Shown here piece by piece: positions 27,001 to 33,000 of a DNA stretch of 64,000 nt (position 1 is its first letter; each line of letters begins with the position of its first letter). The DNA is taken from NCBI RefSeq assembly GCF_001677475.2, contig NZ_CP015229.1. One strand, written 5' to 3'. The position numbers are program-made. Source of the DNA: Escherichia coli (GTDB taxonomy: Bacteria; Pseudomonadota; Gammaproteobacteria; Enterobacterales; Enterobacteriaceae).

Positions 27001-30000
27001 AAATGACCGGTATCTTCGCCGTAACACTCGCGGTGTAAGGTATCGATTTGCGCGGTAATACGCCCAACTATCTGCCCCGCTTTTTTTGCCACCCACGCCT
27101 GCCAGATGATATGGTCCGTCCCCGGATTCTTCGCAGACAAATGCTCGCTGCGTTCAATGAATAAAGGGGGTATCCAGTTTGGATCATCGGGATAAAGTGA
27201 TGACGGAAAAGCGATAAATGCCTTAAGGTCATTTTTATTAATTACTTTTTCAATTTTGATCATCAGCAGATCGCATTCCATAGTTCTGTGGGTAACAAAT
27301 AATTAACGGTGAAAAACAGGTTGCAACAGCAACGAACGGCATCTTAATAATCAACCCAATGAATACAAACGACGAATAAATAGTATTTATTAATGATTAC
27401 GATAAGGTCAGAGACTACACAGAAGCGCCACAATGCCTTTTGTCGATTTAAGGCGACCGGACAAGGCTTCTTCTTAATATATTCATAAATTAAATATCAT
27501 TCACAATAAAAACAAAAAAACTCAAACTCATTATTTAAATCAATGTTCATTTTCACACTGATGAAAATACTATCTCATTTATCTTTTATGCCTATATAAT
27601 CCACCGCATTATTGTCATTTTATTTTTGATATCCAATTTTTTCGTGGTGTATATGTCTAATAAAATCTTTACGCATTCCCTACCTATGCGCTATGCCGAT
27701 TTTCCAACGCTGGTTGATGCTTTGGACTACGCCGCTCTGAGTAGCGCCGGAATGAATTTTTATGACAGACGTTGCCAACTTGAACATCAACTGGAATATC
27801 AGACGTTAAAAACGCGCGCCAAAGCTGGTGCGAAGCGGTTGTTATCGCTGAACCTGAAAAAAGGCGATCGCGTGGCGCTGATTGCCGAAACGAGTAGCGG
27901 GTTTGTAGAGGCTTTTTTTGCCTGTCAGTATGCCGGCTTAGTCGCCGTCCCGTTGGCGATTCCAATGGGCGTCGGTCAGCGGGATTCCTGGAGCGCCAAA
28001 CTCCAGGGTTTACTGGCAAGTTGCCAGCCCGCAGCCATTATCACTGGTGATGAGTGGTTGCCACTGGTCAATGCCGCGACGCATAACAACAACCCCGAAT
28101 TACATGTTTTAAGCCACGCCTGGTTTAAGGCATTACCGGAAGCCGATGTTGCGCTCCAGCGTCCAGTTCCGAACGATATCGCCTACCTCCAGTACACCTC
28201 CGGCAGCACCCGTTTTCCCCGTGGCGTCATTATCACCCATCGCGAAGTGATGGCTAATCTACGTGCTATAAGCCACGATGGCATAAAATTACGCCCTGGC
28301 GACCGCTGCGTCTCCTGGCTGCCTTTCTACCATGATATGGGACTGGTCGGCTTTCTCCTGACCCCCGTCGCCACGCAGCTTTCAGTAGATTATTTGCGCA
28401 CTCAGGATTTTGCCATGCGTCCTCTGCAATGGCTTAAATTGATCAGTAAAAATCGCGGCACCGTTTCCGTTGCGCCGCCGTTTGGCTATGAATTGTGCCA
28501 GCGCCGCGTGAATGAAAAAGATCTCGCTGAACTGGATCTTTCCTGCTGGCGCGTCGCTGGTATTGGTGCAGAACCCATCTCCGCAGAACAACTCCATCAA
28601 TTCGCTGAATGTTTCCGTCAGGTCAACTTTGACGATAAAACTTTCATGCCGTGCTACGGACTGGCAGAAAATGCGCTGGCTGTCAGCTTCTCTGATGAAG
28701 CTTCCGGGGTTGTGGTTAACGAAGTGGATCGCGACATCCTCGAATATCAGGGCAAAGCCGTCACGCCGGATGCTGAAACACGCGCCGTATCGACTTTCGT
28801 CAACTGCGGTAAAGCGTTGCCGGAACATGGCATTGAAATCCGCAATGAAGCAGGTATACCTGTCGCGGAACGTGTGGTAGGCCATATTTGCATCTCCGGC
28901 CCTAGCCTGATGAGCGGTTACTTTGGCGACCAGATTTCACAAGACGAGATTGCCGCGACGGGCTGGTTAGACACCGGCGACCTCGGTTATCTGCTGGACG
29001 GTTATCTGTATGTCACCGGACGCATTAAAGATCTGATTATTATTCGTGGCCGTAATATCTGGCCGCAGGATATTGAATATATTGCGGAACAGGAACCGGA
29101 AATTCATTCTGGCGATGCGATTGCTTTTGTTACCGCCCAGGAAAAAATCATTTTGCAGATCCAGTGTCGGATCAGCGATGAAGAACGTCGCGGGCAGCTT
29201 ATCCACGCGCTGGCAGCACGGATCCAAAGCGAATTTGGCGTGACCGCGGCTATCGATCTGTTGCCGCCCCACAGTATTCCCCGAACGTCCTCCGGCAAGC
29301 CTGCCCGTGCGGAAGCGAAAAAACGTTATCAGAAGGCTTATGCTGCAAGCCTTCATGTGCAGGAATCCCTGGCATGAATCAAACTGTCGCGGTGACGGGC
29401 GCTACCGGGTTTATCGGTAAATATATTATCGATAACCTGCTCGCCCGCGGCTTTCACGTTCGCGCATTGACGCGTACTGCCCGCGCTCACGTCAATGACA
29501 ATCTCATCTGGGTGCGCGGTTCTCTGGAAGATACTCATTCACTTAGCGAACTGGTTGCCGGAGCCAGCGCAGTGGTCCATTGCGCCGGGCAAGTGCGCGG
29601 GCACAAAGAAGAGATTTTTACCCGCTGTAACGTTGACGGCAGCCTGCGACTGATGCAAGCGGCAAAAGAGAGCGGCTTTTGCCAACGTTTTCTGTTTATC
29701 TCTTCGCTGGCGGCGCGCCATCCCGAACTCTCCTGGTACGCAAATTCCAAACACGTCGCCGAACAACGGCTGACTGCAATGGCTGATGAAATTACGCTGG
29801 GCGTTTTTCGCCCGACAGCCGTGTATGGTCCCGGCGATAAAGAGTTAAAACCGCTGTTTGACTGGATGCTGCGCGGCCTGCTGCCACGACTTGGTGCGCC
29901 AGATACACAACTCTCTTTCCTGCACGTCACCGATTTCGCGCAAGCCGTGGGGCAGTGGTTAAGCGCCGAAACTGTACAGACGCAAACCTATGAATTATGC

Positions 30001-33000
30001 GATGGCGTCGCCGGCGGCTATGACTGGCAACGCGTACAGCAACTTGCCGCCGACGCCCGTTGCGGTTCCGTTCGAATGGTTGGTATTCCTCTGTCAGTAC
30101 TCACCTGCCTTGCGGATATCAGTACCGCGTTGAGTCGCCTGGCAGGTAAAGAACCTATGCTGACCCGCTCGAAAATCCGTGAATTAACCCACGCCGACTG
30201 GTCGGCAAGTAATAACCGTATTTCTGAAGATATTAATTGGTTTCCCGGGATTAGCCTGGAACACGCATTACGCAACGGGCTATTTTGATTGTCTTGTTTA
30301 AAGGTGTGTTAACGTTTCTATGGTAAATCGTGAAATAGTAATGGATTACATCCTTTCCTGTTTACAGGATTTGGTCGAAAACGGTGTGGAAATTAAGCCC
30401 GACAGCGATCTCGTCAACGATCTTGGCCTGGAGTCGATCAAAGTGATGGATCTCTTAATGATGCTGGAAGACAGATTCGATATTTCCATTCCTATTAATA
30501 TTCTGCTGGATGTCAAAACCCCTGCGCAATTAATGGAAACACTACTTCCATGGCTGGAGAATAAATAATGGGGCTATACGATAAATATGCACGTCTTGCT
30601 GGCGAGCGACTGCAATTTAGTGATAACGGTTTAACACCGTTTGGTACCTGTATTGATGAAGTGTATTCCGCCACCGAAGGCCGGATCGGCAATAAAAAAG
30701 TGATTCTGGCCGGGACCAATAATTATCTCGGTTTAACCTTTAATCATGATGCCATCAGCGAAGGTCAGGCAGCGTTAGCGGCCCAAGGCACCGGCACCAC
30801 CGGTTCTCGTATGGCAAACGGCAGTTATGCGCCGCACCTGGCGTTAGAAAAAGAGATTGCCGAGTTTTTCAATCGCCCTACCGCTATCGTTTTTTCAACC
30901 GGTTATACCGCTAATTTAGGCGTCATCAGCGCACTTGCCGACCATAACGCCGTGGTGTTACTGGATGCCGACAGCCACGCCAGTATTTATGACGCCTGTT
31001 CTCTCGGTGGCGCGGAAATTATTCGTTTCCGCCATAACGATGCTAAAGATCTGGAACGGCGCATGGTTCGCCTCGGTGAACGTGCGAAAGAGGCGATTAT
31101 CATCGTTGAGGGCATCTACAGCATGCTCGGTGACGTTGCGCCGCTGGCGGAAATTGTTGATATCAAACGTCGTCTCGGTGGTTATTTGATTGTCGATGAA
31201 GCGCATTCGTTTGGCGTGTTAGGTGCAACGGGGCGTGGACTGGCTGAAGCCGTTGGCGTTGAAGATGATGTGGATATTATCGTTGGTACCTTCAGTAAAA
31301 GTCTGGCCTCGATTGGCGGTTTTGCTGTCGGTTCGGAAGCGATGGAAGTGCTGCGCTACGGCAGCCGCCCGTATATTTTTACCGCCTCTCCTTCTCCGTC
31401 CTGCATTGCGACCGTGCGCTCGTCGTTAAGAACCATTGCCTCACAACCAGAGTTGCGGCAAAAGCTGATGGATAACGCCAACCATCTGTATGACGGTCTG
31501 CAAAAACTGGGTTATGAGTTAAGTTCACATATTAGCCCGGTAGTGCCGGTAATAATCGGTTCGAAAGAGGAAGGTTTACGCATCTGGCGCGAGCTTATTT
31601 CGCTGGGCGTTTATGTGAATCTTATCCTGCCACCTGCCGCGCCTGCAGGCATTACGCTGCTGCGCTGTAGCGTAAACGCTGCCCACAGTCGTGAGCAAAT
31701 TGATGCCATCATTCAGGCATTTGCTACTCTGAAGCAGTAATGTGAGCCCGCTGTGGTGTTGCGCCACGGCGGGTTTAATGTTGTCTGTCATACCAATACA
31801 CCAGGCTCAACGCCACCAGCACAAACGCTATCGGTAAACCGAGCGCGGTAACAGGTGCGCTCAACGCAAATAACATTCCCAAATTGACCATGATTTGATA
31901 GCTGATCCAGGTGAGTAAGCCAACGATGACGCCTACAGCGAGACGGCTACCCATCCCTGGCGAGCGCGGGGCGCTAAAGGTAAACGGTACAGCCAGCAAA
32001 ATCATCGCCAAGGTCAAGATGGGTTGCCCCAGTTTTTCCCACAGTGCAAGGCGGTATTCGCTGCTGGGTTGCCCGGTTTCCTGCAAATAATGGATGTAAT
32101 GATTAAGCTGACGGACAGAAAAAGTATTCCCCGGCATCGATAACTCTTCAAGATTCATACTGGTGAAGGCCGATTGGCAGGCAAGATTATCTAATGTTTC
32201 CAGCGTTTCTTTGCCATTCAGCCATTTTTTATGATTCACACCATGCAGGATCCACGTTTTGTCGTCTTCAATGGTGGCACTGCGTGCATAAATGTAGGAT
32301 TCGAGCGAAAGATCGTCACGATAATGAAAAATCTCCACGCCCACCGGCTGGCCCTGCTCGTTCAGCGATTTCACCGTCACAAATTCATTACCACGCCTGG
32401 CCCACAGCATATTGCCGGTAATGTCATCGTCCTCCCCCAACGCAGTGGCGGTCGATTTGATTTGCAGCGCCTGTTGCTGCAATGGCGACGCCACCCACTC
32501 ATCTATTGCGCCTAACGAAACAGTCCACAATATCCCAGCAACCAGCGCCACCAGTGCAATACGGAAGATAGAAAACCCAGTGCTGCGAATGGCGGTAAGC
32601 TCACTGTTTTTCGATAACTGCCCCAGGCCGACAATCCCTCCCAATAAGGCGATAAACGGCGAAAGTTCGACCAGTGTGCGCGGTAAGGTCATCAGCACCA
32701 CCAGCACCGCCTGAGTCCAGCGATAACCGCCCGGGCTGACATCATCCAGTTCGTTAATCAGGTTGAAGGTGGTAAAAAGCGGCAGCAATAGCCCTGCGGC
32801 GGCGGCAAAACCGAGAAAGAGATGACGGATCAAATAGCGACTGAAAACATTCATCGGGAAAATTTCTGCAGCAAAGAGAAGTCGCGTGCGACCAGCATCA
32901 GCAGGCCCATTAGCATGAGTCCGGGCACTAACCACAAACCAGGAATGAGAGGAATCGCGCCGTTAGCCACCAGCGTACGGCAGACGTCGCCGCCATAAAA

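What the first reader, a model, noticed from the sequence alone, without database searches (positions are those of the whole stretch)
27626..31740. Four-gene operon whose content parallels bacterial ceramide/sphingoid-base synthesis clusters
The four consecutive plus-strand genes are an acyl-AMP ligase/acyl-ACP synthetase, an NAD(P) Rossmann-fold reductase, an acyl carrier protein and an alpha-oxoamine synthase. Its PLP-lysine motif GTFSKS and DADSHAS motif look more like serine palmitoyltransferase than BioF or Kbl, and no biotin genes are nearby. The genes are translationally coupled (ATGA and TAATG overlaps). This is the same enzyme set described for ceramide synthesis in Caulobacter (Spt, ACP, ACP synthetase, CerR-type reductase). 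To my knowledge no lipid product is assigned to this E. coli locus, so it is a candidate for an undescribed sphingoid-like aminolipid or amino-ketone signal pathway.
Basis: partly seen in the sequence, partly recalled or inferred. Interest (0 to 1): 0.9.

Follow-up and report, generated by a model that had tools for sequence, protein, structure and literature searches.

The report
Known E. coli sphingolipid synthesis operon
The four genes are real and do encode the first steps of sphingolipid (ceramide) synthesis, but this E. coli locus is already annotated, crystallised in part and tested biochemically; only its natural end product and its role remain unknown.

Summary
Four co-directional, tightly packed genes lie at 27653-31740: a fatty acyl-AMP ligase (aasR), an SDR reductase (cerR), an acyl carrier protein (acpR) and serine palmitoyltransferase (spt). 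The ATGA and TAATG overlaps are present. The functional reading is also right. The synthase passes NCBI's curated SPT model (599.7 bits, cut-off 500) and scores far lower against the BioF, Kbl and CqsA models. The gene order aasR-cerR-acpR-spt matches Caulobacter.

The novelty claim fails. RefSeq already names the gene spt, and the locus occurs in 4206 of 5426 complete E. coli genomes. Gene 1 is PDB 3PBK (EcFAAL). Proteins from BL21(DE3), 95.5-100% identical to those here, were shown in 2021-2022 to load acyl chains onto the dedicated ACP and to make 3-oxo-sphinganine from serine. The divergent neighbour yghO is the published ceramide synthase homologue. The LptF/LptG paralogues downstream were drawn for E. 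coli UTI89 in a 2026 preprint.

Still open are the native lipid, the inducing conditions (BL21 makes none in LB) and the conserved accessory genes: the yghR/S/T kinase trio, a CHAD-like protein, a YtfJ-like protein and YghQ. K-12 lost the operon through an IS5-associated deletion.

The parts
27282..27652 (.). Divergent control region between yghO and aasR. It is 371 bp and 31% G+C. It carries a conserved TATAAT at 27595-27600 and a conserved GGTGTAT just before the ATG.
   Evidence: Sequence. Composition and alignment with 15 enterobacterial loci. The consensus promoter scan found no + strand site here, so the promoter is an inference.
27653..29377 (+). aasR, also called EcFAAL: a fatty acyl-AMP ligase that acts as an acyl-ACP synthetase dedicated to AcpR.
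   Evidence: NCBIfam NF006624, 871.7 bits against a cut-off of 600. PDB 3PBK, 1279 bits over residues 1-574. 95.5% identical to BL21 ECD_02851, where the annotated start differs. Published activity: PMC8460268 and PMC9386255.
29374..30288 (+). cerR / epi: an extended-SDR NAD(P)-dependent 3-ketoreductase homologue, related to NDUFA9 and HpnA.
   Evidence: NCBIfam and PDB hits to SDR epimerase/reductase families and to NDUFA9. G9/G12/G15, S110, Y122 and K126 are invariant in 61-63 homologues. 32-34% identity to the gene at the CC_1164 position in Caulobacter loci. Its function in E. coli has only been proposed.
30320..30568 (+). acpR: a specialised acyl carrier protein. Ser39 is the phosphopantetheine attachment site.
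   Evidence: ACP models at E 6e-9, below their cut-offs. Ser39 is invariant in 78 homologues. 100% identical to BL21 ECD_02853, which was labelled with beta-alanine in vivo.
30568..31740 (+). spt: a PLP-dependent serine palmitoyltransferase.
   Evidence: NF047599 SerpalmtaseBetaP, 599.7 bits against a cut-off of 500. The other models score lower: BioF 333.9, Kbl 297.5, CqsA-type 221.5. 47% identity to S. paucimobilis SPT 2JG2, E 8e-111. H137, D210, H213, K244 and R366 are invariant in 83 sequences. 99.5% identical to BL21 ECD_02854, which was assayed with [14C]serine.
31743..31777 (.). A 16-bp stem hairpin between the convergent genes spt and lptG2, probably a bidirectional terminator.
   Evidence: Terminator scan and sequence.
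26139..27281 (-). yghO: homologue of the bacterial ceramide synthase (aca / bCerS, N-acyltransferase), transcribed divergently from the operon.
   Evidence: 42-43% identity over the full length to the gene at the CC_1154 position in Caulobacter loci. It sits next to the operon in 56 of the fetched loci. The assignment was published in PMC9386255. It has no Pfam or NCBIfam match.
31775..32854 (-). lptG2: a paralogue of the LPS-export permease LptG.
   Evidence: TIGR04408, 303 bits. Only 27% identical to K-12 LptG. Paralogues in sphingolipid loci, E. coli UTI89 included, are described in bioRxiv 10.64898/2026.04.12.717747.
32851..33921 (-). lptF2: a paralogue of the LPS-export permease LptF.
   Evidence: TIGR04407, 316 bits. 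29% identical to K-12 LptF.
33952..34515 (-). A YtfJ-family protein with an N-terminal signal-like sequence. Its role is unknown.
   Evidence: TIGR01626, 213 bits against a cut-off of 151. N-terminal sequence MMSSRLIIALIIMLLAPGVQA. Linked to spt in 14 enterobacterial loci.
34524..35348 (-). An all-helical protein with a CHAD-like fold, annotated as hypothetical.
35348..36697 (-). yghQ: a MOP-superfamily flippase-like membrane protein, homologous to the putative flippase at the CC_1166 position in Caulobacter.
   Evidence: Weak match to the MOP flippase model. 27% identity over 438-445 aa to the gene upstream of aasR in Caulobacter loci. 5'-truncated in K-12.
36742..37500 (-). yghR: a P-loop kinase, one of three paralogues.
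   Evidence: Family alignment with the motifs GCDGSGKST, DRYPQ and RKPDH. Co-located with spt across orders.
37530..38243 (-). yghS: a P-loop kinase with a thymidylate-kinase-like fold.
38417..39109 (+). yghT: a P-loop kinase, the third paralogue.

Best explanation
This is the aasR-cerR-acpR-spt operon, the core of the E. coli sphingolipid locus.

Step 1: AasR (EcFAAL) adenylates a free fatty acid and transfers it to the phosphopantetheine arm of the dedicated carrier AcpR, not to CoA.

Step 2: Spt, a PLP enzyme with Lys244 as the Schiff-base lysine, condenses L-serine with acyl-AcpR. This releases CO2 and holo-AcpR and gives 3-oxo-sphinganine.

Steps 1 and 2 were shown experimentally by others on proteins 95.5-100% identical to these.

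Step 3 is inferred by homology and synteny with Caulobacter. The divergently transcribed YghO (bCerS homologue) N-acylates the base, and CerR reduces the 3-keto group, giving dihydroceramide. The order of these two reactions in E. coli is unknown.

Step 4 is inferred. YghQ flips the lipid across the inner membrane, and the LptF2/LptG2 permeases, probably powered by the housekeeping LptB, extract it for delivery to the outer membrane.

Step 5 is speculative. The conserved YghR/S/T kinase trio and the CHAD-like protein add or handle a phosphorylated head group.

The locus appears to be silent in laboratory culture.
For: - **SPT family:** the synthase passes the curated equivalog NF047599 and scores far lower against the BioF, Kbl and CqsA-type models. 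It is 47% identical to crystallised SPT, with all catalytic residues invariant.
- **Gene 1:** it is PDB 3PBK.
- **Identity to tested proteins:** the window proteins are 95.5-100% identical to BL21(DE3) ECD_02850-02854.
- **Published biochemistry:** AcpR carries 4'-phosphopantetheine, and AasR acylates its cognate AcpR. [quoted passage not shown] Co-expressing the three E. coli genes gives the same product in vivo (PMC9386255). EcFAAL loads holo-EcACP and rejects CoA (PMC8460268).
- **Synteny:** the arrangement of yghO next to aasR-cerR-acpR-spt is kept in Enterobacterales, Nitrospira, Geobacter, beta- and gammaproteobacteria. Caulobacter keeps the four-gene order, matching the published CC_1152-1168 map.
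- **Transport:** in Caulobacter, LptF2/G2 form a complex, bind LptB and cannot be deleted while the anionic sphingolipid is made.
- **Selection and spread:** all 13 genes are under purifying selection, with dN/dS of 0.03-0.12. The locus is present in 4206 of 5426 complete E. coli genomes.
Against: - No native sphingolipid has been reported for E. coli in the searchable literature.
- BL21(DE3) carrying the intact chromosomal locus with empty vectors shows no such lipid in LB. Over-expressing SPT alone is not enough.
- The products were identified by co-migration on TLC. The mass (m/z 300.29) was reported for the Caulobacter gene set, not the E. coli set.
- The roles of CerR and YghO in E. coli were only proposed.
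- EcFAAL crystallised with C12 and C14 adenylates, so the native base may be shorter than C18.
- About 22% of complete genomes, K-12 included, lack the operon, so it is dispensable.
Confidence: 0.88

Rival explanations
1. The operon makes a short-chain alpha-amino ketone or free sphingoid base that acts as a signal or secreted metabolite, in the manner of CAI-1, rather than a membrane ceramide.
For: EcFAAL was crystallised with C12 and C14 adenylates. SPTs of this group are described as having relaxed substrate specificity (section heading in PMC9386255). No ceramide has been shown natively.
Against: The CqsA-type model scores only 221.5 bits against 599.7 for SPT. A full-length bCerS homologue (YghO) sits next to the operon in most of the fetched loci that have enough flank. 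A flippase homologue and LptF/G paralogues are present in every enterobacterial locus with complete flanks. These neighbours are unnecessary for a soluble signal. Compounds migrating like sphinganine and ceramide appeared when 3-oxo-sphinganine was produced in BL21.
Confidence: 0.07
2. The synthase is a BioF or Kbl paralogue, so the operon belongs to biotin or threonine metabolism.
For: All alpha-oxoamine synthases share the fold. The BioF and Kbl models give significant but sub-threshold scores (333.9 against 426 and 297.5 against 460).
Against: The scores fall below both curated cut-offs while the SPT cut-off is exceeded. The best PDB matches are SPTs at E 1e-110, against 1e-58 or weaker for Kbl/BioF. 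The enzyme used serine in vitro. No biotin genes are nearby.
Confidence: 0.01
3. The locus is a silent evolutionary relic in E. coli with no current physiological product.
For: No sphingoid lipid is seen in BL21 in LB with empty vectors. The operon is lost in K-12 through an IS5-associated deletion and is absent from about 22% of complete genomes. Some genomes carry IS insertions, for example H11 with IS903B. The 31% G+C upstream region fits silencing, which is an inference.
Against: All 13 genes are intact here and show dN/dS of 0.03-0.12. Catalytic residues are invariant. 4066 genomes hold at least 80% of the operon at 95-99% identity. The whole gene set stays linked through rearrangements in other Enterobacterales.
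Confidence: 0.04

Closest known systems
E. coli BL21(DE3) ECD_02850-ECD_02854 (yghO/aca, aasR, epi, acpR, spt), Padilla-Gomez et al. 2022, PMC9386255
   Same: It is the same locus between glcC and yghR. The proteins are 95.5-100% identical, with the same order and overlaps.
   Different: There are only allelic differences. The annotated start of aasR differs by 12 codons.
Caulobacter crescentus sphingolipid locus CC_1152-CC_1168 (spt CC_1162, acpR CC_1163, cerR/epi CC_1164, aasR CC_1165, bCerS CC_1154, LptF2/G2 CC_1156/1155, flippase CC_1166)
   Same: The aasR-cerR-acpR-spt order is the same. Identities are Spt 55%, AasR 44%, AcpR 41-43%, CerR 32-34%, YghO/bCerS 42-43% and YghQ/flippase 27%, and LptF2/G2 paralogues are present.
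   Different: tblastn with the E. coli locus proteins found no YghR/S/T, CHAD-like or YtfJ-like gene in the Caulobacter loci. I did not search the E. coli locus for the Caulobacter head-group genes (CC_1158-1161, cpgABC) or for LptC2. The published ceramide kinase CpgB has a GGDG motif, which differs from the P-loop kinases found here. LptF2/G2 are only 23-25% identical between the two organisms.
EcFAAL, PDB 3PBK
   Same: Gene 1 is essentially this protein: 1279 bits over residues 1-574.
   Different: The structural papers treat it as a model FAAL and do not mention sphingolipids.
Sphingomonas paucimobilis / S. wittichii serine palmitoyltransferase (PDB 2JG2, 2X8U)
   Same: 47% identity, and the same PLP-lysine, His/Asp/His and Arg390-equivalent residues.
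   Different: Arg378 of the S. paucimobilis enzyme is Leu here and is hydrophobic in 81 of the other 82 sequences compared, Caulobacter included.

Membership tests
Serine palmitoyltransferase (alpha-oxoamine synthase subfamily) | Passes a curated SPT family model and scores above the sister families BioF, Kbl, ALAS and CqsA | tested here: met
   NF047599 gives 599.7 bits against a cut-off of 500. The others give BioF 333.9, Kbl 297.5, CqsA-type 221.5 and ALAS 218.5.
Serine palmitoyltransferase (alpha-oxoamine synthase subfamily) | PLP-binding lysine and the catalytic His/Asp/His/Arg residues | tested here: met
   H137, D210, H213, K244 and R366 align with SpSPT H159, D231, H234, K265 and R390. 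They are invariant in 83 sequences.
Serine palmitoyltransferase (alpha-oxoamine synthase subfamily) | Condenses L-serine with a long-chain acyl thioester to give 3-oxo-sphinganine | not testable with these tools
   Published for the 99.5% identical BL21 enzyme. The evidence is a TLC co-migration assay with [14C]serine, in which palmitoyl-AcpR was preferred over acyl-CoA and acyl-AcpP (PMC9386255).
Rhodobacterial AasR/AcpR/Spt tripartite system | A dedicated ACP gene immediately upstream of spt, with a conserved phosphopantetheine-attachment serine | tested here: met
   acpR ends at 30568 and overlaps the spt start. Ser39 is invariant in 78 homologues. 4'-PPT labelling was published.
Rhodobacterial AasR/AcpR/Spt tripartite system | A FAAL-type adenylating enzyme that loads the ACP and not CoA | tested here: met
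   The FAAL subfamily model NF006624 gives 871.7 bits, and the protein matches PDB 3PBK. The activity itself is taken from PMC8460268 and PMC9386255.
Bacterial ceramide pathway (Spt + bCerS + CerR) | A CerR-type SDR reductase with a Rossmann motif and the catalytic S...YxxxK residues | tested here: met
   G9xxG12xxG15, S110, Y122 and K126 are invariant. The protein is 32-34% identical to the gene at the CerR position in Caulobacter. Reductase activity in E. coli has not been tested by anyone I could find.
Bacterial ceramide pathway (Spt + bCerS + CerR) | A bCerS N-acyltransferase homologue in the genome | tested here: met
   YghO (26139-27281) is 42-43% identical over its full length to the gene at the CC_1154 position. 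No Pfam or NCBIfam model matches it. Its activity in E. coli is untested.
Bacterial ceramide pathway (Spt + bCerS + CerR) | The organism produces ceramide or a sphingolipid | not testable with these tools
   No report was found. BL21 with empty vectors shows none in LB.
Sphingolipid LptF2/LptG2 transporter | A second, diverged LptF/LptG pair encoded in the sphingolipid locus | tested here: met
   TIGR04407 and TIGR04408 are passed. The pair is 29% and 27% identical to K-12 LptF and LptG. It is linked to spt in many loci. A transport role has been shown only genetically and by pull-down in Caulobacter.
CHAD domain (for the 274-aa protein) | The CHAD fold and a sequence-profile match | tested here: inconclusive

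The most novel reading that the evidence does not exclude
The operon may be the core of a conserved 13-gene enterobacterial module running from yghO to yghT. Its uncharacterised members are three orthologous thymidylate-kinase-like P-loop kinases (YghR, YghS, YghT), a CHAD-like helical protein, a periplasmic YtfJ-like protein and the YghQ flippase. On this reading they build and export a phosphorylated (anionic) head group that differs from the Caulobacter ceramide phosphoglycerate. Most natural E. coli strains could then place a so far undetected phospho-sphingolipid in the outer membrane under conditions not reproduced in the laboratory. The K-12 y-genes yghO, yghQ, yghR, yghS and yghT would be orphaned remnants of that pathway.
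Probability: 0.3. Interest if true: 0.65.

Novelty: already known. Interest (0 to 1): 0.25.

Why it matters
As posed, the finding rediscovers a published locus, so it adds little. The result still has three uses.

- It shows that most natural E. coli strains, including pathogens and BL21, carry an intact, selected ceramide pathway that K-12 lacks. This matters to anyone using K-12 as the reference for envelope biology, or BL21 as a supposedly sphingolipid-free expression host.
- The native lipid, its trigger and its effect on the outer membrane or the host have not been reported in the literature I could search.
- The comparative analysis here ties five K-12 genes of unknown function (yghO, yghQ, yghR, yghS, yghT) and one unannotated CHAD-like gene to that pathway. 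This gives concrete candidates for the missing head-group and transport steps.

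Tried and rejected
- **YghR/S/T as ceramide kinases:** I asked whether they are homologues of the Caulobacter ceramide kinase CpgB. They are not. CpgB is described with a GGDG motif and sphingosine-kinase-like domains, whereas YghS has a thymidylate-kinase fold with a Walker A motif.
- **Missing Arg378:** I checked whether the absence of SpSPT Arg378 argues against SPT function. 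It does not. The position is hydrophobic in this whole clade, including the experimentally validated Caulobacter type.
- **Sequence searches that found nothing useful:** Pfam and NCBIfam on YghO and the 274-aa protein, and PDB sequence searches for YghR, the 274-aa protein and the YtfJ-like protein.
- **Promoter scan:** it found no + strand sigma-70 site upstream of aasR, and site counts overall were no higher than in shuffled sequence.
- **Papers not held:** Olea-Ozuna 2021 and Stankeviciute 2022 could not be read. Statements about them rest on how later papers cite them.
- **Reverse test:** one of the four diverged YghS homologues (L085) sits near a contig end, beside an unrelated aminotransferase, so it was uninformative.

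Full report
**What is there**

The window holds four co-directional ORFs at 27626/27653-29377, 29374-30288, 30320-30568 and 30568-31740.

ATGA lies at 29374-29377 and TAATG at 30566-30570.
- Genes 2 and 3 are separated by 31 nt.
- A 16-bp hairpin follows the last gene, before a convergent gene.
RefSeq and the crystallised protein start at the ATG at 27653.

**Identity of the four products**

- **Gene 1** passes the fatty acyl-AMP ligase model NF006624 (871.7 bits, cut-off 600). It is essentially identical to PDB 3PBK, "Fatty Acyl-Adenylate Ligase" (1279 bits).
- **Gene 2** is an extended SDR. Its GxxGxxG, Ser110 and Tyr122-x3-Lys126 residues are invariant in 61-63 homologues.
- **Gene 3** is an 82-residue ACP. 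Ser39 is invariant in 78 homologues.
- **Gene 4** passes NCBI's curated serine palmitoyltransferase equivalog NF047599 (599.7 bits, cut-off 500). It fails the BioF (333.9/426), Kbl (297.5/460) and CqsA-type (221.5/428) models.
- Gene 4 is 47% identical to the crystallised S. paucimobilis SPT. Its residues H137, D210, H213, K244 and R366 are invariant in 83 sequences.
- SpSPT Arg378 is Leu here, but that position is hydrophobic throughout this clade, Caulobacter included.

**This is a known locus**

- The operon matches 4206 of 5426 complete E. coli genomes. In the listed hits RefSeq already labels the products [quoted passage not shown].
- It lies between glcC-yghO and yghR-yghS-yghT-pitB.
- The same locus in BL21(DE3) is 95.5-100% identical at the protein level.
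- Padilla-Gomez et al. 2022 (PMC9386255) studied exactly those genes as ECD_02850-02854. They showed that AcpR(Ec) incorporates beta-alanine, which indicates a 4'-phosphopantetheine group. AasR(Ec) works with AcpR(Ec) but not with the Caulobacter ACP. [quoted passage not shown] The authors propose ECD_02852 as the ketoreductase and yghO (ECD_02850) as the N-acyltransferase.
- Independently, Patil et al. 2021 (PMC8460268) showed that EcFAAL loads holo-EcACP and rejects CoA.
- A 2025 review lists 3PBK with C12 and C14 adenylates bound.
- A 2026 preprint from the Klein laboratory draws the E. coli UTI89 sphingolipid operons beside those of Caulobacter and Sphingomonas.

It is right only for the native end product.

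**Comparative evidence**

I scanned one genome per species with an SPT alignment and fetched 80 loci. I then searched them with the 13 proteins of the E. coli locus.

- The arrangement of yghO (divergent) next to aasR-cerR-acpR-spt recurs in Enterobacterales, Nitrospira, Geobacter, and many beta- and gammaproteobacteria.
- Caulobacter loci keep the four-gene order. A YghQ-like flippase gene lies upstream, and LptF2-LptG2-YghO homologues lie downstream. This matches the published CC_1166 / CC_1165-1162 / CC_1156-1154 map.
- Identities to Caulobacter are Spt 55%, AasR 44%, AcpR 41-43%, YghO 42-43%, CerR 32-34% and YghQ 27%.
- All 13 genes show dN/dS of 0.03-0.12 against a diverged Escherichia copy.

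**The operon is part of a larger unit**

Downstream, on the other strand, lie several further genes.

- **LptG and LptF paralogues.** They pass the Lpt models but are only 27% and 29% identical to the K-12 proteins.
- **A YtfJ-family protein** with a signal-like N-terminus.
- **A 274-residue "hypothetical" protein.**
- **YghQ**, a MOP-type flippase-like protein.
- **Three paralogous P-loop proteins**, YghR, YghS and YghT.

In Caulobacter, LptF2/G2 form a complex, bind LptB and cannot be deleted while the anionic sphingolipid is made.

In Enterobacterales all these genes stay linked to spt despite rearrangements. The kinase trio also sits next to spt operons in Rhodocyclaceae and Methylotenera, in Luteibacter and Dyella, and in Carnimonas, in several cases together with YghQ- and CHAD-like genes.

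I also ran the test in reverse, starting from four diverged YghS homologues.

- Two lie beside a complete spt operon.
- One, from Oecophyllibacter, is a fused YghT-YghR protein. It lies next to CHAD-like and YghQ-like genes, with no spt within 10 kb.
- One was uninformative.

I found no paper that links yghR/S/T to sphingolipids. They are not homologues of the Caulobacter ceramide kinase CpgB, which has a GGDG motif.

**K-12**

In MG1655 an IS5 element lies between yghO and a 5'-truncated yghQ. The genes from aasR to the CHAD-like gene are missing.

**Expression**

The 371-bp divergent intergenic region is 31% G+C. It is poorly conserved except for a TATAAT at 27595-27600 and the ribosome-binding region. 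The consensus scan found no strong promoter.

BL21 carries the intact chromosomal locus. With empty vectors it shows no sphingoid lipid in LB, and SPT alone is not sufficient. I infer that the locus is silent under those conditions. Silencing by H-NS is a guess based on base composition only.

**Mechanism**

- **Shown by others on near-identical proteins:** fatty acid + ATP gives acyl-AMP, then acyl-S-AcpR (AasR). Acyl-AcpR + L-serine gives 3-oxo-sphinganine + CO2 (Spt).
- **Inferred from homology and synteny:** N-acylation by YghO and 3-keto reduction by CerR give dihydroceramide. Caulobacter work puts acylation first. The lipid is then flipped by YghQ and extracted by LptF2G2 with LptB.
- **Speculative:** head-group phosphorylation by YghR/S/T, with the CHAD-like protein taking part.

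**Verdict**

Interest is low as posed. The residual interest lies in the unidentified native lipid and in the uncharacterised accessory genes.

Noticed in passing
window 31775-33921 (-): A second LptG/LptF pair, only 27% and 29% identical to the housekeeping K-12 proteins, is named simply lptG/lptF by the RefSeq pipeline. This hides the fact that they are locus-specific paralogues.
   Followed up: yes
window 34524-35348 (-): The 274-aa 'hypothetical protein' has no sequence-family match. It folds with pLDDT 93.9 into an all-helical structure whose best matches are CHAD (polyphosphate-binding) domains. It has several invariant His, Asp and Arg residues.
   Followed up: partly
window 36742-39109 (yghR, yghS on -, yghT on +): Three paralogous kinases with a thymidylate-kinase-like fold, each with its own orthologue, travel with spt operons in several proteobacterial orders. 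They remain in K-12 as orphan y-genes. In Oecophyllibacter (L083 9932-11287) two of them are fused into one protein.
   Followed up: partly
L002 (MG1655 3130146-3131340) compared with window 27282-35700: K-12 carries IS5 between yghO and a 5'-truncated yghQ, at the place where this window has eight genes (aasR to the CHAD-like gene) and the yghQ 5' end.
   Followed up: yes
window 27282-27652: The divergent yghO-aasR intergenic region is 31% G+C. In other Enterobacterales it varies from about 270 to 1100 bp. Only a TATAAT (27595-27600) and the ribosome-binding region are conserved. No regulator gene is obvious in the locus.
   Followed up: partly
L084 11596-12339 and L086 11528-12286: An Asp/Arg beta-hydroxylase family (LpxO-like) gene sits inside the spt/kinase loci of Carnimonas and of a metagenomic contig. 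It is absent from the E. coli locus, which suggests lineage-specific lipid hydroxylation.
   Followed up: no
window 18377-18598, 43910-43985, 60697-60760 (+): Rfam matches above the gathering score: C0719 sRNA, naRNA4 and ES173 sRNA.
   Followed up: no
window 11572-16149 (-) and the ORFs upstream of it (157-10077): A 1525-aa ORF corresponds in position to sslE (lipoprotein metalloprotease) in the homologous RefSeq region. The run of minus-strand ORFs before it was not examined.
   Followed up: no
L003 (E. coli SCPM-O-B-8794, GTDB representative): This Escherichia copy of the locus differs from the window at synonymous sites by 0.10-0.65 per gene. That is unusually diverged for a within-species comparison. 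It may reflect a divergent lineage or recombination at this locus.
   Followed up: no
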